Shown here: positions 1 through 36,586 of the stretch, piece by piece
How positions within the stretch are numbered: position 1 is the stretch's first letter
Layout: each line of letters starts with the position of its first letter
DNA from: a virus
Taxonomy: Duplodnaviria > Heunggongvirae > Uroviricota > Caudoviricetes
Direction: 5' to 3' (one strand)
Length of the DNA: 47,426 nt
Virus record (IMG/VR): IMGVR_UViG_2778261504_000010
Location: 1 to 47,426 of that record
The notes under the pieces: generated by a model
What the model was told of the DNA's origin: nothing
Database searches by the model: none
The model's input: only the letters and a program-made list of their open reading frames with translations
Made by a program: the position numbers and the translations under genes

Positions 1-162
1 TGCTCGCCCTGAGGGCCGGTATCACCTTTAGGACCCTGTTCACCCCGTGGCCCTTGCTCGCCCTGAGGGCCGGTATCACCTTTAGGACCCTGTTCACCCC
101 GTGGCCCTTGCTCGCCCTGAGGACCTGTGTCGCCTTTAGGACCTGTTTCTCCCTGCGGGCCT
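1..162. repeat. 54-bp tandem direct repeat, two identical copies (1-54, 55-108) plus a degenerate third (109-~162), coding for collagen-like triplets
   Basis: Unit tgctcgccctgagggccggtatcacctttaggaccctgttcaccccgtggccct repeats exactly at period 54. Confidence 0.85.
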
Positions 163-26351: not shown

Positions 26352-26546
26352 CTGGTACCTCCTTTACATACTGTCATCGTACTGCGTACCCTTTCTTCCG
26401 CCTGTTCTGTGACGCGGTAGGCTTACGATTTACGGTAAAAGCCACCTGACCAAATGGATGGAGCACCGCTGTCTTATGGTTGCTGATAACCAGCGACACC
26501 ATACACACAGGTCGCTGTAAAAGAAGTCGTATTGCTTTACGGTTTT

Positions 26547-30506: not shown

Positions 30507-30746
30507 TTATTGCCATACGACGGTGCAGCCGTCGATACAGGACGTTTTAACCACACGACGCAGGCCGCTGAATGTCTGGATGATTTCCGTTACCGGCCAT
30601 ACAGGACCCCCCACGGGCGGGCAGGCATAAACCACAGGTAAACGGTGATGCTGTCCCGTTACACGGCCACCGGTGGTGTGGATGGCCACACGGGCACGGG
30701 AACGGACGGCGTTAATGGTCTGCTTGTCCATCGTCTTGTTCTCCAT
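30507..30746 (-). CDS. hypothetical protein
   Basis: 79-aa ORF; start overlaps stop of MuB-like gene. Confidence 0.35.
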   Translation of the reverse strand: MENKTMDKQTINAVRSRARVAIHTTGGRVTGQHHRLPVVYACPPVGGPVWPVTEIIQTFSGLRRVVKTSCIDGCTVVWQ

Positions 30747-31639
30747 CAGTGAATTAACATTTCTGCGAAATCATCAATAGCCTGCACACTGACCGGCGCA
30801 TCGCTGATATCACAAATCCGGTAGACCCCACGCACAAGTTTAAACAGGCGTCGGGCATTGCCCCGTGAGCGTGTGTAAAGTGCTTCACAGATTTCAGGCG
30901 CTGCTGCTTCCGGCATCAGTTCGGCGGCTATCTGGATGAAATCCTTCTGCGCCAGCGTATCGCCGAGGTCCAGCGAAAGAGCCACCCGACTGTATAGCTG
31001 CGCGAACTCCCCACGATTGCCTTTAAGATTAATCAACAGGCGCGGCATACCAGCCAGGGCAACACCGACGCCCGCCTTGTCATGCAGACGACGCAGAACT
31101 TCCAGCGCACGATAGGGGAGCAGTTCGGCTTCATCCACCATCAGCAGGCGACCGGAGTCACGCAATTCGTGTACGCAGGCATTAATCAGTTCGTGAATAT
31201 TGCCGCGAACCTTTACCCCCAACTGGCGGCACAGTTCCTCCAGCAGTGTCCTGGCTGTATAGCCCGGGTCAGCCTCAATCAGTATTGCGTCCCGGTTTCT
31301 GGCGGCGTATTCGCGCAAAATCATTGTTTTGCCAAGACCTGCCGCGCCATACAACACGCTAATTTCACACTCCAGATGAGCATAGGCCAGCGCCTCCAGC
31401 CCTTTGGCGGCCATACCTGTAGTCACAAAACTTGCTTTTACACGCCGGTTGTTTTCTTTTTCCCGTTCACGGCTGACAAAGGCAGAAATTCGCTCTTCGA
31501 TATCAGTGATATCGCCCTGATATTTACCCTGCAAATACTGGTTGATAACGGCGCTGCTACGACCAATAGCACGGGCAACGTGGGTCTGCGTATAGCCGCG
31601 ACGGGCCATTACGTCATTTAATTGCGTAATTAAACTCAT
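30746..31639 (-). CDS. MuB-like transposition ATPase
   Basis: 297 aa; N-terminal HTH-like segment then Walker A GAAGLGKT; immediately downstream of transposase. Confidence 0.8.
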   Translation of the reverse strand: MSLITQLNDVMARRGYTQTHVARAIGRSSAVINQYLQGKYQGDITDIEERISAFVSREREKENNRRVKASFVTTGMAAKGLEALAYAHLECEISVLYGAAGLGKTMILREYAARNRDAILIEADPGYTARTLLEELCRQLGVKVRGNIHELINACVHELRDSGRLLMVDEAELLPYRALEVLRRLHDKAGVGVALAGMPRLLINLKGNRGEFAQLYSRVALSLDLGDTLAQKDFIQIAAELMPEAAAPEICEALYTRSRGNARRLFKLVRGVYRICDISDAPVSVQAIDDFAEMLIH

Positions 31640-31656: not shown

Positions 31657-33702
31657 TTAACGGTTGTTTGTGCCGTCTTTCTTTAAATTGCGGTCACGCT
31701 CGGATGCAAAGAAATAAAGTTCTTCTTTTTTCTTTTCCTCCTTACGCTCCAGACCAAATCCAAAATTAAAGTCAGGTCTCTGCGTAATAGCCGGGGTAAG
31801 CTCGCGTTTAGCCTCTTCGATTTTCTGCGTGGCCCGTGCAATGCGGCCTCTGGCGCGTTTCTCCTGCTGCTGTTCGATAACAGCTTTCGGGAACGCATCA
31901 ACCTTATTACCGTTCCAGATGGCATCGCAGATATAAGAACCGTCCATCCGCCTGACAATCACGCTGTTTGCGTCGTGAATGTCGTAACAAACCCTGACTT
32001 CATTTCCGTGCTCTGCTGCCAGTTCTGTGGAGAAATAGATGTTTCTGAATAACACCACTTCACCGCGTCGCACCGTGCAGATGCTTTCCGGTCGGAACAT
32101 TTCATGCAGTTCTTCCGGCGACAGCATGTCGATTTCAGCCTTTTGCTCTTTTATCAGTTTCCGGCGATACGCTGCCGGGCTGTAATGTTCGCCATCCTCT
32201 TTGCGGGGAAGGCTGCTGTGTGGCCGGTTGTTATACCGTTTCACCTCCAGCTCTATTGCGGCCATCAGTTGCTCAAAAGTGGGGACTTCTCCCATCGCTT
32301 TAACCTGCCGCTTTGTCAGCTCTTTCCCTTTGTGGGTGGCCTTAATGGCTGACTGTGTGATGCGTTGCTGCATCATCACCGTTTCCTTGTCTGCATTTTT
32401 TGAGCAGTACGTCTGGAAACTCAGGGCCACATCTTTGGGTATTCCTTTGTTTGCCCGTTCTATTACCCCGCGCCCCTGCGGGTTACCAGGTGTCCCCGTG
32501 TGATGCTCCACACCCAGCCGGGGCAGAATCCCGGTAATATCGGCATCAAGCACCCGGTTTTTTTCACCGCCCCCGTTATCGGAGTAATAAATCAGCGGTA
32601 TTCCGTGTTGTGACATGCCATGACGCAATGCATCAGCAACGGCTATCACGTTCTCCGACAGGGACAGCGACCAGCCCACAATAAAGCGTTGCCCCGCATC
32701 CATAACCAGCGTCACTTCTGGCCGGAATGTATTCCCGGTGGCAGGGTTGAATGCCATCAGTTTCATACAGTGACCATCCCCGACCCATACCGCATTAACC
32801 GGTAATGTGCTCCAGTCGCGCCGCACAAAGGGATTGAGCGAACGCCAGGCTGAACCGGTGGAGCGGAAACGCTCTTTAACAATCACCGGGACGCTGCTTA
32901 ACACCCGTCTTACTGCGTGAACTGAAGGCAGTGCCGCCAGCATTCCCGCATCGTTCGCGTGTTTTTCATGCCACCAGGCTGAAAACTCGCGATACGCATA
33001 TTCAACGGTCGGGCGCTTCCATGAGCGATAGAACATAAAGAAATCGCTCAACCACCAGACCTGCTCCCACGGTGTTCCCTTATGATGACCGGGAGCCAGT
33101 AACGCCAGTAACTGATTGGCATCACCGCGCGCCATCAGCCAGGCGGAATACCATTCCTGTAAACTCCCTGTACTGACGCCAGTTCGCTTACCCTGTCGGG
33201 CATTGGCGGTATTACCGGCCACAATAACGCGCTCGGGCAAAGCCCCCTGGCGGATACCATCAACGATGTGTTTTATCGCTGCTGTCCTGGACATTCCTGC
33301 GTATTCACGCAGTTTATGCACTTCGGTAGCCAGCAATATCCGCGCATCAGCGATGGCCTTTTGCTTGTCGGTCAGTGCCTGGACTTCGCGTAATGCCAGT
33401 TCCGGGCATTTGACCATCACTTCCAGTTCATCACGAACGGTGACGTTCTTAACTGCCTTCTGCTCAACCACAACGGGCAGTTGTGTATCTTCCAGAATTT
33501 GCTGGGCTAGACGTTGGTGTAAAGCTTTCTGCACCTCCTCTGGAAAACTATCAATATGGTATTCAAAAGTAACACCTTTCACGCCAGCTCGTTGGCGGCT
33601 AACCCACCGTTGACGCTTTGCCATTCTAATCAGTGAGCTATTGTGTTTGGGGATACCAGCAATGCCCTGAAGTTCATTGAATGAATACCATTGGGATATC
33701 AT
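31657..33702 (-). CDS. MuA-like DDE transposase
   Basis: About 680 aa; N-terminus resembles the Mu winged-helix DNA-binding domain; start taken at MISQWYSF whose ATG overlaps the ner stop. Confidence 0.85.
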   Translation of the reverse strand: MISQWYSFNELQGIAGIPKHNSSLIRMAKRQRWVSRQRAGVKGVTFEYHIDSFPEEVQKALHQRLAQQILEDTQLPVVVEQKAVKNVTVRDELEVMVKCPELALREVQALTDKQKAIADARILLATEVHKLREYAGMSRTAAIKHIVDGIRQGALPERVIVAGNTANARQGKRTGVSTGSLQEWYSAWLMARGDANQLLALLAPGHHKGTPWEQVWWLSDFFMFYRSWKRPTVEYAYREFSAWWHEKHANDAGMLAALPSVHAVRRVLSSVPVIVKERFRSTGSAWRSLNPFVRRDWSTLPVNAVWVGDGHCMKLMAFNPATGNTFRPEVTLVMDAGQRFIVGWSLSLSENVIAVADALRHGMSQHGIPLIYYSDNGGGEKNRVLDADITGILPRLGVEHHTGTPGNPQGRGVIERANKGIPKDVALSFQTYCSKNADKETVMMQQRITQSAIKATHKGKELTKRQVKAMGEVPTFEQLMAAIELEVKRYNNRPHSSLPRKEDGEHYSPAAYRRKLIKEQKAEIDMLSPEELHEMFRPESICTVRRGEVVLFRNIYFSTELAAEHGNEVRVCYDIHDANSVIVRRMDGSYICDAIWNGNKVDAFPKAVIEQQQEKRARGRIARATQKIEEAKRELTPAITQRPDFNFGFGLERKEEKKKEELYFFASERDRNLKKDGTNNR

Positions 33703-33914
33703 AAGTATCTCTCCGGCCATATAGTTTCTGGCGACTCGCCAAGAGCTTCAGCGATAATTTTTTCTCCACGCGGATACGGCTTATCAAGAGCATTTTTCAA
33801 AGTGTACGGGGATAACGAGTTAAGCCTCCCTAAACCTGAAAGTGATAACCCTTTTTTTCGTAATTCAGCAATGACATCAGCTCGATGCCATCCGGTTCTT
33901 TTCTTGTGCTGCAT
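33699..33914 (-). CDS. Ner-like DNA-binding regulator
   Basis: 71 aa; WHRADVIAELRKKGLSLSGLGR...LKNALDKPYPRGEKIIAEALG closely resembles Mu Ner/Nlp. Confidence 0.8.
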   Translation of the reverse strand: MQHKKRTGWHRADVIAELRKKGLSLSGLGRLNSLSPYTLKNALDKPYPRGEKIIAEALGESPETIWPERYL

Positions 33915-34120
33915 TTCATGCCATCCTTATGAGTTAACTAGATAGCTACCTACACAAGTAGCTATAAGGCTACTTCGCAACAATAATGTGATTGCGTTGT
34001 GATTGCAAGCAAAAGCAACCACAAAAAATAGAATTTTTCTGCGCACTCTTGTTGCTTATTGATATTTAAGGTTTTTTGTGATTGCCGAAATATTGAGTCT
34101 GGCAATCATAAGGAGAGGAT
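33915..34120. promoter_or_regulatory. divergent promoter/operator region between ner and the c-like repressor
   Basis: 206 bp AT-rich; GTGATTGC at 33988, 33999, 34078; 7-bp inverted repeat gattgcc(34080-86)/ggcaatc(34101-07); palindrome tagctac...gtagcta (33942-33965). Confidence 0.55.
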
Positions 34121-34525
34121 ATGATTGCCAACAAAGAGTGGTTTACTGCACAAGAATTAGCCAACTTAGGACTACCTGGCTTCCCTAAAGATAAAAGTGG
34201 GATAAATCGTCGCGCCAACAAAGAAGGGTGGTTACGAAGGCAAAAAGCAAATGTTCGAGGGATCGCTTATGAATTTCATATTTCAGCCTTACCAATGGAA
34301 GCCCAACAAGTACTGGGGAACACTTCAGGTGTAGTTGGTGCTTCTATTGACATGGAGCTTTTAGAAAAGCTCATTGAATCAGTTGAGATTCTTTTAACTA
34401 AAAAACGAAAAAAAATGGAGCCACGAGAAAAAGCCAAGCTCATATCCATGTTGTACAAAGCATGTAAAAAATCAGACTCTATTGATGATGAAATTATCAG
34501 TAATATCATAGAATTAGTTGCATGA
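34121..34525 (+). CDS. c-like repressor (Mu-type winged-helix DNA-binding domain)
   Basis: 134 aa; WFTAQELANLGLPGFPKDKSGINRRANKEGWLRRQKANVRGIAYEFHISALPMEAQQVL parallels the N-terminus of the adjacent transposase; divergent from ner. Confidence 0.55.
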   Translation: MIANKEWFTAQELANLGLPGFPKDKSGINRRANKEGWLRRQKANVRGIAYEFHISALPMEAQQVLGNTSGVVGASIDMELLEKLIESVEILLTKKRKKMEPREKAKLISMLYKACKKSDSIDDEIISNIIELVA

Positions 34526-34540
34526 CAGAGAGGAACATTC

Positions 34541-35170
34541 ATGTCAAATGATAATGTGAGCAAATTCCCTACCACAAAAGGAAAAAAACTGATTGATGAG
34601 ATTATGGCCCAAATAGATCAGGAACCAGATATTGCAGTTCCTAGCAATATCAACAACCTGAGTATTTCAGGTACTGGAAACATTATAGGAAACAATAACA
34701 TACTACACATACAACAACCCGTCCCGCCCAAAAAGAAAGTTATTGTAAAGACAGGTGATGGTGTAATTAACGCTACTCAAAAGGCTCATTTGCAAGAACT
34801 TGTTAGGACGTTAGTTGAAATTCATACACAAGTAAAAAAGAGCAAACTGTCTTGGGGAGGCGCATGGAAAAAGATCTTAATCCCTTTAAAAATAAGTAGT
34901 TATCATGAAATCCCTAGCGTTCTCTATGAAAAAGCAGTCAAAATTCTGCAAAAAGAAATTGCTATCATAAAAAATATGAATTCTGCACCAAAGAAAGTTA
35001 GCAATTGGCGCTCATTGCAAATTAAAGCCATTCAAGCTCGTTGTAATGAACGAGGTTTACAAACTTGGCGTAAGGACTACATGCAAACTCATTTCGGTAA
35101 AGACTCGATGACTAAACTTACGGATAAAGAGCTACAAGCCTTGTACCGTGCTGTCATGGGAAAACGCTGA
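34541..35170 (+). CDS. hypothetical protein (AT-rich cargo gene downstream of repressor)
   Basis: 209-aa ORF, no hydrophobic segment, Lys/Asn/Ile-rich; no family recognised. Confidence 0.5.
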   Translation: MSNDNVSKFPTTKGKKLIDEIMAQIDQEPDIAVPSNINNLSISGTGNIIGNNNILHIQQPVPPKKKVIVKTGDGVINATQKAHLQELVRTLVEIHTQVKKSKLSWGGAWKKILIPLKISSYHEIPSVLYEKAVKILQKEIAIIKNMNSAPKKVSNWRSLQIKAIQARCNERGLQTWRKDYMQTHFGKDSMTKLTDKELQALYRAVMGKR

Positions 35171-35459
35171 TGGTTTTATAGGCCAAGAACCCTTGGCCTT
35201 ATCTAATTGATACAATCAACCCGATCTAAATCATCATAATCATCTTAAAGCCTGCTTGGTTAAATGTATTAAAAACAACCTAAGTTTGCTGCATAATCTG
35301 AGCAAATTCACCCAGAAAAAAACGTAAAAAAAAGCATTTTTGCGCATTTTCTTCAAAACGATCCAGAATCGGTGAAATCTCCCACATCCCGCACCAATCA
35401 AGGCCTACAGGCTTATATTGACTGCTCGGACTCAGCCCAGAATTGATCACCACCCCACA
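35171..35459. mobile_element. Mu-like prophage terminal region (transposase-binding end) and junction with host
   Basis: Non-coding; AAAACG/CGTTTT-type motifs at 35321-35370; element ends ...ccaca at 35459, where the ynfF reading frame breaks. Confidence 0.5.
35181..35205 (+). terminator. terminator-like hairpin after the 209-aa gene
   Basis: Stem ggccaag/cttggcc (35181-35198) followed by T-rich ttatctaatt. Confidence 0.4.
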
Positions 35460-36586
35460 CAACCCTGACAAATATAAGCAGGTTTTGCTGAACCGATCTC
35501 TCGTGCCAACTGGATAATTTTTTCTGCCGGGATGCTGGTGATTTTTGCTGCCCATTCCGGCGTTTTAGCTATGCCGTCAGGCCCTTCGCCCAGAATATAG
35601 GCTTTATAATGCGCGTTACGTGGTGCGTTGGCGGGCAGCGTTTTTTCATCGTAACCAACACAATATTTGTCGAGAAATGGCTGATCGACCATGTTTTCAG
35701 TAATCAGTACCCAGGCAATCGCACAGGCCAGTGCGCCATCGGTGCCAGGGCGAATGGGCAGCCATTCATCTTCACGCCCGGCAGCAGTGTCGTTATAACG
35801 TGGATCGATGACGATCATGCGTGCGTTTGAACGTTCGCGGGCTTGCTCGACGTAGTAAGTGACACCACCGCCGCTCATCCGCGTTTCTGCCGGGTTATTT
35901 CCGAACATAACGACCAGTTTCGTATTGGCGATATCATCCGGGCTGTTGCCATCATTGGCACCGAACATATAACTCATTGCGGCACTGATCTGTGCGGTAC
36001 TGTAGCTGCCATAGCGACTGAGAAAACCACCGCAAGAGTTCATCAGACGGTACGGGACGTTTGAGTTGGTGATGTTTCCGCCATCTACGCCTGTTCCGTA
36101 CAGGACATGTACAGCCTCATTGCCGTAATCTTTCAGGATCCGCCGAAGATTATCACTGATGGTATCCAGGGCTTCGTCCCAACTTATCCGTTCAAATTTA
36201 CCTTCACCGCGCTTGCCGACGCGCTTCATGGGATATTTCAACCTATCAGGATGATTCATCCGTCGGCGGATAGAGCGCCCGCGTAAACACGCTCGAACCT
36301 GATGGTTACCGTAGACGTCGTCACCTGTCGTATCAGACTCCACCCAGTACACGGTGTCATCTTTCACATGCAAACGTAACAGACAGCGGCTCCCGCAGTT
36401 AACGGTGCAGGAACTCCAGACCGCTTTCTCTTCTACCGGAGCCTCTGCCGCCCGGACCATTTGGGAAAATGGCAGAGTGAAAGCACTGCTTGCCAGCGCA
36501 AGACTGCCAAGTGCGGAGGTTTTCATCAGACTTCTACGGCTGATTTCAGCCTTCATGAGCGCCTCTGTGGTATGGATTTTCATCAT
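35450..36586 (-). pseudogene. ynfF: ynfF', 5' fragment of DMSO-reductase-family catalytic subunit truncated by the prophage
   Basis: 378 aa with Tat motif SRRSLMK; paralogous to the full-length downstream gene up to ...AKPAYICQG, then CVGW-stop where the paralogue continues WGPQRQ. Confidence 0.75.

What the first reader, a model, noticed from the sequence alone, without database searches (positions are those of the whole stretch)
33915..34525. Immunity switch: c-like repressor sharing a winged-helix domain with the transposase, plus operator repeats
The 134-aa plus-strand protein has an N-terminus parallel to that of the adjacent transposase (W-x-[ST]-x-QEL ... LPG ... GW ... R ... GV.G ... 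EY ... LP.E.Q). The 206-bp divergent region carries GTGATTGC three times and a 7-bp inverted repeat around the repressor start. The repressor is shorter than Mu c (196 aa as I recall), so its C-terminal regulatory part may differ.
Basis: partly seen in the sequence, partly recalled or inferred. Interest (0 to 1): 0.45.

Follow-up and report, generated by a model that had tools for sequence, protein, structure and literature searches.

The report
Mu/D108-type phage repressor-operator switch
This is the lysogeny control region of a Mu-like transposable prophage in E. coli: a short Mu c-type repressor, a Ner protein and their binding-site repeats, built like the classic phage D108 switch with different operator sequences and a shorter repressor tail, so it is largely ordinary.

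Summary
The 134-aa protein (34121-34525) carries the Mu DNA-binding domain PF02316. It is 38% identical over 60 residues to the N-terminus of the adjacent transposase and matches the solved MuA I-alpha and Mu c domains. It is 33% identical to D108 c over residues 5-111.

The 206-bp divergent region holds six TRTGRTTGC sites, not three. All six keep their positions in eight orthologous loci, down to 50% protein identity. Two of them form a perfect 11-bp inverted repeat, not 7 bp, around the ribosome-binding site and ATG.

A Ner gene (63% identical to D108 Ner) sits beside an AGCTAC-N8-GTAGCT operator with the same core, spacing and near-identical offset as in D108. A conserved early promoter has its -35 and spacer covered by sites S1 and S2.

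Two things differ from Mu and D108. The repressor lacks the last ~65 residues of c and ends in an invariant LVA, an ssrA-like tail. A conserved 209-aa ORF6C-like gene follows it in the same orientation.

Verdict: an uncharacterised heteroimmune variant of the Mu/D108 immunity module. Binding, promoters and proteolysis are inferred, not shown.

The parts
34121..34525 (+). Repressor gene (134 aa). It has a Mu-type winged-helix DNA-binding domain (about residues 5-66, nt 34133-34318), a helical C-terminal region and the C-terminal tripeptide LVA.
   Evidence: PF02316 E 3.3e-18. PDB 1tns E 4.8e-9 and 1g4d E 7.2e-6. D108 c 33% identity over residues 5-111. L132, V133 and A134 are invariant in 9 sequences.
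33987..33995 (+). Operator site S1 (TGTGATTGC), inside the spacer of the early promoter.
   Evidence: Positionally conserved in 8 orthologous regions.
33998..34006 (+). Operator site S2 (TGTGATTGC), 11 bp after S1. Its TTGC is part of the -35 hexamer TTGCAA.
34015..34023 (-). Operator site S3 (TGTGGTTGC on the - strand), inverted relative to S2.
34077..34085 (+). Operator site S4 (TGTGATTGC). It starts the second cluster, 53 bp after S3.
   Evidence: (I4).
34102..34110 (-). Operator site S5 (TATGATTGC on the - strand), just upstream of the Shine-Dalgarno sequence of the repressor gene. It is the left arm of the 11-bp perfect inverted repeat 34100-34110 / 34120-34130.
   Evidence: (I2).
34120..34128 (+). 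Operator site S6 (TATGATTGC), which contains the repressor ATG and codons 2-3. It is the right arm of the inverted repeat.
   Evidence: Absent in the L018 relative.
33980..34008 (-). Predicted early promoter (Pe-like) for ner-A-B: -35 TTGCAA (34008..34003), 17-bp spacer, -10 TATTGT (33985..33980).
   Evidence: Among the top two - strand candidates in all 9 relatives (best in 7, second to the S5/S6 artefact in the window and L002), score 9.0-11.2. Only 3.3% of random 280-bp window segments reach 9.0. Same geometry as the top D108 candidate TTGATT-17-TACATT. Not mapped experimentally.
33942..33965 (.). Ner operator: ATAGCTAC-N8-GTAGCTAT. A third GCTAC copy lies at 33970-33974 (within the arm 33969-33975 of repeat I9).
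   Evidence: I8, I9. The core AGCTAC-N8-GTAGCT matches D108 CCGTGAGCTAC-N8-GTAGCTCACGG at a near-identical offset from the ner ATG (30 against 33) and is present in all 8 orthologs.
33699..33914 (-). ner gene (71 aa, HTH_35).
   Evidence: PF13693 E 3.3e-25. 63% identity to D108 Ner, E 2e-33.
31657..33702 (-). Mu-type transposase (681 aa from the ATG that overlaps the ner stop; 687 aa from the ATG at 33720). Its N-terminal ~65 residues (about nt 33511-33693, residues 4-64 of the 681-aa form) are the domain shared with the repressor.
   Evidence: PF02316 and Mu-transpos_C. Residues 4-64 match 1tns, E 7.3e-9. 38% identity to the repressor.
30746..31639 (-). MuB-like AAA+ transposition ATPase.
   Evidence: AAA_22 E 7.5e-22 and TniB.
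34541..35170 (+). Conserved 209-aa gene in the same orientation, 15 bp after the repressor gene. ORF6C-like, function unknown.
   Evidence: Present after the repressor in every relative, and after unrelated HTH repressors in RS138, L017 and L020. ORF6C hit in 7 of 10 members.
35181..35198 (+). GC-rich hairpin GGCCAAG-aacc-CTTGGCC, 10 nt after the stop codon of the 209-aa gene. Possibly the terminator of the repressor operon.
   Evidence: Read from the sequence. Not called by the terminator scan because there is no T run.
35454..35460 (.). Prophage left end (...CCCCACA). E. coli ynfF resumes after it.
   Evidence: Seven independent insertions share the sequence up to this point and then diverge. 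ynfF matches at 100% from 35460 onward.

Best explanation
The region is the immunity (lysis-lysogeny) switch of a Mu/D108-type transposable prophage inserted in E. coli ynfF.

**Repression (inferred).** In the lysogen, the 134-aa repressor binds through its Mu-type winged-helix domain to six TRTGRTTGC sites arranged in two clusters. Cluster A (S1-S3, 33987-34023) lies on the -35 hexamer and spacer of the early promoter (-35 TTGCAA, -10 TATTGT, reading towards ner). Occupancy there would shut off ner, the transposase and the B ATPase. Cluster B (S4-S6, 34077-34128) brackets the ribosome-binding site and start codon of the repressor gene. It would give autoregulation and, through the helical C-terminal oligomerisation region, cooperative bridging to cluster A across the 53-bp AT-rich spacer.

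**Enhancer role (by analogy).** The transposase carries a homologous N-terminal domain. The same sites probably double as the transpositional enhancer, as O1-O2 do in Mu.

**Ner (inferred).** Once the early promoter fires, Ner binds the AGCTAC-N8-GTAGCT palindrome. This lies just downstream of the predicted start point and over the likely -35 of the repressor promoter. Ner would damp both transcripts, as in D108.

**Induction (the most speculative step).** Induction probably runs through proteolysis. The repressor lacks the Mu/D108 C-terminal regulatory domain and instead ends in an invariant ssrA-like LVA that could be read by ClpXP.

**Shown:** the homologies, the site clustering, the conservation and the promoter-like geometry. 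**Inferred:** binding, promoter activity, looping, enhancer use and proteolysis.
For: **Domain homology.**
- PF02316 hits both the repressor and the transposase.
- Repressor and transposase N-termini are 38% identical, E 2e-14.
- The repressor matches 1tns and 1g4d. The transposase N-terminus matches 1tns.
- The repressor aligns with D108 c at 33% over residues 5-111.

**Gene order.** attL, 209-aa gene, repressor, then divergent ner-A-B, as in Mu and D108.

**Operator sites.**
- Six TRTGRTTGC sites lie in 142 bp, against 2.03 expected in the whole 47 kb.
- All six are positionally conserved while the sequence between them diverges, in orthologs down to 50% protein identity.
- D108's own control region is enriched in the related RTGATT(T) core, with 5 copies in 185 bp.

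**Promoter.** TTGCAA-17-TATTGT, or its equivalent, is among the top two candidates on the ner strand in all 9 relatives (best in 7). It has the same geometry as the top D108 candidate.

**Ner.** The protein is 63% identical to D108 Ner. Its operator core, spacing and offset match D108.

**C-terminus.** LVA is invariant in 9 sequences and in L018. Wider short-form relatives end in ELVS, ELAS, DLAS, ALAA or SIA.

**Literature.** ClpXP degradation of Mu repressor through a C-terminal determinant is reported in PMC10584840. ClpX C-terminal signals fall into ssrA-like and MuA-like classes (PMC8138137).
Against: - No binding, transcription or proteolysis data exist for this protein or its relatives.
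- The simple sigma-70 scan found no promoter in the spacer. Pe rests on my own weight-matrix scan.
- No convincing promoter for the repressor gene was found. The best candidate, TAGCTA-17-AATAAT, scores only 5.2.
- No clear IHF site lies between the two clusters, unlike Mu.
- S6 is missing in the L018 relative.
- The structure model of the repressor is poor (pLDDT 60), so oligomerisation through the C-terminal helices is a guess.
- The conserved LVA could simply be the hydrophobic end of a packed helix.
- The repressor is no more similar to its own transposase than to MuA, so shared site recognition is argued by analogy only.
Confidence: 0.8

Rival explanations
1. The 11-bp inverted repeat around the repressor start acts as an mRNA hairpin rather than, or as well as, a pair of operator sites. 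The hairpin would hold the AUG in its stem and the Shine-Dalgarno sequence in its loop, and so throttle repressor translation.
For: - The 51-nt segment folds to -14.5 kcal/mol, z = -3.4, and 0 of 200 shuffles fold as well.
- Across 9 orthologs, 84% of cells pair, against 24-57% when the partner is slid.
- The outer G-C pair becomes C-G in the distant group.
Against: - The hairpin is lost or insignificant in L011 (z +0.5), L018 (z +0.3) and L007 (z -1.0), while the GCAAT/TTGC cores stay.
- The same 9-mer occurs at four other places that are not in hairpins.
- The compensatory change equals the family-wide change of the site flank from TTGCC to TTGCG, so it does not discriminate between the two readings.
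- No Rfam family matches.
Confidence: 0.2
2. The TRTGRTTGC repeats are mainly a transpositional enhancer read by the transposase N-terminal domain. The 134-aa protein would then be a competitive regulator of transposition rather than the transcriptional immunity repressor.
For: - The transposase carries the same domain.
- In Mu the operator and the enhancer are the same DNA (O/E in PMC3820752).
- The sites lie about 1.3-1.5 kb from the left end.
Against: - S1 and S2 lie exactly on the conserved early promoter, which predicts transcriptional repression.
- In Mu the two roles coexist, so this is a complement rather than a true alternative.
Confidence: 0.1
3. The 134-aa ORF is a decayed or truncated c gene. 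Immunity would be provided elsewhere, for example by the 209-aa protein.
For: - It is 40-62 residues shorter than the D108 and Mu c proteins.
- Some database entries name relatives of the 209-aa protein 'DNA-binding protein'.
Against: - The length of 132-134 aa and the C-terminus are conserved in 10 orthologs from independent insertions.
- A wider family of 139-145-aa proteins aligns end to end.
- The 209-aa protein has no DNA-binding domain hit and no similarity to c.
- It also follows unrelated repressors in other phages.
Confidence: 0.05

Closest known systems
Phage D108 control region (c repressor, ner, Pe, ner operator)
   Same: - Same gene order and orientation.
- The repressor is homologous over residues 5-111.
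- Ner is 63% identical.
- The Ner operator has the same AGCTAC-N8-GTAGCT core at a near-identical offset (30 against 33).
- The early-promoter geometry is the same.
- The operator region is enriched in an RTGATT core.
- The N-termini of repressor and transposase are related, the classic finding of Mizuuchi et al. 1986, cited in PMC3820752.
   Different: - The operator word is RTGATTGC instead of RTGATTT, so heteroimmunity is expected.
- The repressor is 134 aa rather than 174 aa. It lacks the last ~65 residues and ends in ELVA instead of KKTV.
- An extra 209-aa gene lies between the repressor and attL.
- There is no DNA-level similarity to any deposited phage.
Phage Mu c (Rep), operators O1-O3 / enhancer (IAS), and the MuA I-alpha domain
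   Same: - Winged-helix DNA-binding domain: 1g4d E 7.2e-6 and 1tns E 4.8e-9.
- Multiple operator repeats in two clusters separated by an AT-rich spacer.
- The transposase carries the same domain.
- Mu repressor is inactivated through a C-terminal ClpX determinant (PMC10584840).
   Different: - No Mu-type C-terminal domain.
- No recognisable IHF site between the clusters.
- Different operator sequence.
- The transposase core is only weakly similar to MuA and is at most 48% identical to any phage transposase in the collection.
ssrA-type (LAA-like) C-terminal ClpX degrons
   Same: The protein ends in L-V-A, invariant across the family. Relatives end in LAA, LVS or LAS. C-terminal ClpX signals are ssrA-like or MuA-like (PMC8138137).
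   Different: Nothing shows that this tail is accessible or degraded. In the low-confidence model it is the end of a helix.
Lambda cI-rexA-rexB type arrangement (an accessory gene co-transcribed with the repressor in lysogens)
   Same: A conserved gene lies directly downstream of the repressor, in the same orientation and presumably on the same lysogenic transcript. It is portable between phages whose repressors are unrelated. The lambda arrangement itself is recalled from memory.
   Different: - No sequence or fold relation to RexA or RexB.
- No hit in the defence-system library.
- The fold resembles the Red-beta C-terminal domain, NinB and Sak helical modules instead.

Membership tests
Mu/D108 c-type repressor (PF02316 class) | N-terminal Mu-type winged-helix DNA-binding domain | tested here: met
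   PF02316 E 3.3e-18, above the gathering score. 1tns E 4.8e-9 and 1g4d E 7.2e-6.
Mu/D108 c-type repressor (PF02316 class) | The DNA-binding domain is homologous to the N-terminus of the cognate transposase | tested here: met
   23/60 identities, E 2e-14. The transposase N-terminus matches 1tns, E 7.3e-9.
Mu/D108 c-type repressor (PF02316 class) | The gene lies between attL and a divergent ner-A-B operon and is transcribed towards attL | tested here: met
   D108 has the same layout.
Mu/D108 c-type repressor (PF02316 class) | The C-terminal domain of Mu/D108 c (multimerisation region plus a regulatory tail ending KKAV or KKTV) | tested here: not met
   The alignment with D108 c ends at residue 111 of 134 and residue 106 of 174. 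There is no counterpart for D108 residues 107-174, and the tail is ELVA.
Mu/D108 c-type repressor (PF02316 class) | Binds several operator repeats that overlap the early promoter | not testable with these tools
   The sites and the promoter overlap are present and conserved. Binding needs EMSA or footprinting.
Ner / D108-type ner operator | HTH_35 protein encoded as the first gene of the early operon | tested here: met
   PF13693 E 3.3e-25. 63% identity to D108 Ner.
Ner / D108-type ner operator | Inverted repeat with an 8-bp spacer between the early promoter and ner | tested here: met
   ATAGCTAC-N8-GTAGCTAT at 33942-33965. The core is identical to D108 and conserved in 8 orthologs.
Mu transpositional enhancer (IAS) | Operator DNA bound by the transposase I-alpha domain and needed for transpososome assembly | not testable with these tools
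   Only the domain homology is shown.
ssrA-like ClpX C-terminal degron | C-terminal L-A/V-A with a free carboxylate | tested here: met
   LVA is invariant in 9 sequences and in L018.
ssrA-like ClpX C-terminal degron | ClpXP-dependent degradation | not testable with these tools
   Needs half-life measurements in clpX or clpP backgrounds, or in vitro degradation.
ORF6C-domain proteins (the 209-aa neighbour) | Pfam PF10552 match above the gathering score | tested here: inconclusive
   7 of 10 family members hit at E <= 0.05, the best at 24 bits against a cut-off of 22. The window protein itself does not hit. The best viral fold match is an ORF6C protein.

The most novel reading that the evidence does not exclude
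Short-form Mu-type repressors (about 132-145 aa) form a distinct regulatory design. The Mu/D108 C-terminal sensor domain is replaced by a compact helical module ending in an ssrA-like LVA/LAA tail. Repressor level, and hence induction, would then be set directly by ClpXP. The conserved ORF6C-like gene in the same operon is found next to unrelated repressors in several transposable phages. It would act as a lysogeny-expressed modulator, for example by shielding or exposing the tail or by engaging host SSB or recombination proteins, rather than being a passive passenger.
Probability: 0.2. Interest if true: 0.55.

Novelty: new variant of a known kind. Interest (0 to 1): 0.3.

Why it matters
The logic of the switch has been textbook knowledge for Mu and D108 since 1985-86: a repressor and a transposase that share a DNA-binding domain, an operator that doubles as an enhancer, and Ner feedback. 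The main claim therefore adds a new immunity type, not a new principle.

The region does give a well-defined set of testable parts:
- a new operator word;
- a six-site map that is phylogenetically footprinted;
- a predicted early promoter;
- a natural experiment on what the Mu repressor C-terminal domain is for, since this family does without it and carries an ssrA-like end instead.

The conserved, uncharacterised gene that travels with different repressors at the left end of transposable phages is the most open question here.

Tried and rejected
- **DNA searches.** Searches with 33600-35300 against deposited phages (distant mode) and complete E. coli genomes found nothing. The element is known only from draft assemblies and read sets.
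- **Simple sigma-70 scan.** It found no promoter in the spacer, so I used a weight-matrix scan instead.
- **High-scoring promoter calls at S5/S6.** TTGGCA-15-TATGAT on the - strand and TTGACG-17-TATGGT on the + strand in distant relatives were rejected. The -10 covers the repressor ATG, and the hexamers are by-products of the operator word (TTGCC resembles a -35, TATGAT a -10).
- **IHF site.** A search with WATCAANNNNTTR found no convincing site between the clusters.
- **Split-gene idea.** The idea that the 209-aa protein is the detached C-terminal half of c was rejected, with no similarity to D108 c.
- **Structure of the repressor.** AlphaFold2 prediction from 9 sequences gave pLDDT 60, too poor for a fold search.
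- **Libraries.** Defence-system, NCBIfam and Rfam searches gave nothing useful.
- **Classic papers.** The D108 paper (PMC339817) and the PMC id I guessed for the Harshey Mu review are not held. What I say of the footprinted D108/Mu operators, of Mu c being 196 aa, and of LVA-tagged proteins being unstable is from memory or from the sequences themselves.

Full report
**Setting.** The window is E. coli chromosome carrying a Mu-like transposable prophage.
- Host ynfF is interrupted. Its DNA matches E. coli at 100% from window 35460 onward.
- Seven independent insertions of the same element, in caiC, mipA, flhB, tisB and other neighbourhoods, share sequence up to ...CCCCACA at 35460 and then diverge. 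This defines the left end and indicates transposition into unrelated sites.
- Reading inward from that end, the genes are:

| Coordinates | Strand | Gene |
|---|---|---|
| 34541-35170 | + | 209-aa ORF |
| 34121-34525 | + | 134-aa ORF (the finding) |
| 33915-34120 | | 206-bp spacer |
| 33699-33914 | - | Ner-like gene |
| 31657-33702 | - | Mu-type transposase |
| 30746-31639 | - | MuB-like AAA+ ATPase |

. This is the order found in Mu and D108.

**Checking the observation.**
- Both the 134-aa protein and the transposase contain Pfam PF02316, the Mu DNA-binding domain, with E 3.3e-18 and 5.3e-15.
- The two proteins align directly at 23/60 identities, E 2e-14.
- The repressor matches the solved MuA I-alpha domain (1tns, E 4.8e-9) and the Mu c DNA-binding domain (1g4d, E 7.2e-6). 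The transposase N-terminus matches 1tns at E 7.3e-9.
- GTGATTGC occurs three times in the spacer, against 2.57 expected in the whole 47 kb.
- The inverted repeat at the repressor start is a perfect 11-mer, not 7 bp.
The homology behind it is solid.

**The operator array is larger than reported.** The repeat unit is TRTGRTTGC.
- It occurs seven times in the window, against 2.03 expected, and 0 of 100 shuffles reach seven. Six of the seven lie within 33987-34128. By my arithmetic about 0.006 would be expected in that interval.
- S1 and S2 are direct repeats 11 bp apart. S3 is inverted relative to S2.
- After a 53-bp AT-rich gap comes S4. S5 is inverted relative to S4. S6 contains the repressor ATG.
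- I fetched the orthologous regions of relatives from E. coli, Salmonella and metagenomes, whose repressors are 98%, 87-88%, 69% and about 50% identical. In all eight the TNTNNTTGC cores sit at the same six positions, while the sequence between them has diverged freely.
- A tenth relative, L018, keeps five of the six sites but not S6.
- D108's own control region carries five RTGATT(T) words in 185 bp. The two phages therefore share the RTGATT core and differ in the next bases, which is what heteroimmune relatives would show.

**The Ner half of the switch.**
- The 71-aa protein is HTH_35 (E 3.3e-25) and 63% identical to D108 Ner.
- Next to its start lies ATAGCTAC-N8-GTAGCTAT at 33942-33965.
- D108 has CCGTGAGCTAC-N8-GTAGCTCACGG at a near-identical offset from its ner ATG (33 against 30).
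- The core AGCTAC-N8-GTAGCT is present in all eight orthologs.

**Promoters.**
- The consensus scan found nothing in the spacer.
- A weight-matrix scan gave one candidate that recurs in every relative, among the top two on the ner strand in all nine and the best in seven: -35 TTGCAA (34008..34003), 17 bp, -10 TATTGT (33985..33980). It scores 9.0-11.2, and only 3.3% of random 280-bp window segments reach 9.0.
- The top D108 candidate, TTGATT-17-TACATT, has the same position relative to the Ner palindrome.
- S2 overlaps the -35 and S1 fills the spacer, so repressor occupancy should exclude RNA polymerase. The Ner palindrome would lie at about +8 to +31.
- I could not assign the repressor's own promoter with confidence. 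The best positionally recurring candidate, TAGCTA-17-AATAAT at 33959-33987, is weak (score 5.2).

**How the repressor differs from c.**
- D108 c (174 aa) aligns with residues 5-111 at 33% identity, E 6e-19. The alignment then stops, and the last ~65 residues of c have no counterpart.
- The family alignment shows an invariant C-terminal L-V-A in an otherwise variable tail. L018 also ends in ELVA.
- An exhaustive profile-free search found 571 representatives. Among them is a set of 139-145-aa proteins that align end to end and finish in ELVS, ELAS, DLAS, ALAA or SIA. D108-like long forms end in KKTV or KKAV.
- Mu repressor is known to be degraded by ClpXP through a conformationally masked C-terminal determinant (PMC10584840). 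ClpX C-terminal signals are ssrA-like or MuA-like (PMC8138137).
- I therefore propose, as inference only, that this short form uses an ssrA-like rather than a MuA-like tail. The repressor model was too poor to say more (pLDDT 60).

**Rival for the inverted repeat.**
- As RNA, 34090-34140 folds into an 11-bp hairpin with the Shine-Dalgarno sequence in the loop and the AUG in the stem (-14.5 kcal/mol, z -3.4). Across orthologs, 84% of cells pair.
- The hairpin disappears in L011 and L018 and is insignificant in L007, while the TTGC cores persist.
- The one compensatory change equals the family-wide change in the site flank.
- I rate a translational role as possible but secondary.

**The neighbour gene.**
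- The 209-aa ORF follows the repressor in every relative.
- Homologues also follow unrelated Cro/CI-type HTH repressors opposite Ner-like genes in Ralstonia phage RS138, in L017 and in a Burkholderia element.
- The family has 57 clusters. Seven of ten members touch Pfam ORF6C.
- Residues 70-209 model well (pLDDT above 90).
- There is no defence-library hit and no similarity to c. Function is unknown.

**Verdict.** This is a Mu/D108-type immunity switch, a system described in 1985-86 (Harshey et al.; Mizuuchi et al., cited in PMC3820752).

What is new:
- an uncharacterised immunity type with its own operator word;
- a short repressor lacking the c C-terminal domain and ending in an ssrA-like tail;
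- a conserved accessory gene.

No DNA-level relative exists among deposited phages or complete E. coli genomes. The transposase is at most 48% identical to any phage transposase in the collection. Interest is modest.

Noticed in passing
[not shown]
   Followed up: partly
window 35454-35460 and 35447-36586: The prophage left end (...CCCCACA) lies inside E. coli ynfF, which is truncated to 379 codons. Six other assemblies carry the same element at six different chromosomal sites, which suggests recent, active transposition.
   Followed up: yes
window 35181-35198: A GC-rich hairpin, GGCCAAG-aacc-CTTGGCC, lies 10 nt after the stop of the 209-aa gene. It may terminate the repressor operon, but it has no T run.
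   Followed up: no
window 1-130: Tandem collagen-like Gly-X-Y repeats (reverse strand) lie in what looks like a tail-fibre gene running off the window start. The prophage therefore extends beyond the window.
   Followed up: no
L015 (D108) 865-1049: The D108 control region contains five RTGATT(T) words in 185 bp. It shares the RTGATT core with the TRTGRTTGC sites here, which suggests that operator specificity diverged from a common word.
   Followed up: partly
window 34100-34131: The operator word resembles both promoter hexamers (TTGCCA like a -35, TATGAT like a -10). The S5/S6 palindrome therefore scores as a strong promoter on either strand. I treated this as an artefact, but RNA polymerase trapping there is not excluded.
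   Followed up: partly
window 33699-33720: The transposase has two candidate starts. The ATG at 33702 overlaps the ner stop (ATGA) and is the one called in relatives (681 aa). The ATG at 33720 would give 687 aa.
   Followed up: no
window 26475-26483: This is the only TRTGRTTGC match outside the control region (TATGGTTGC, + strand). One such match is consistent with chance, given about 2 expected per window.
   Followed up: no
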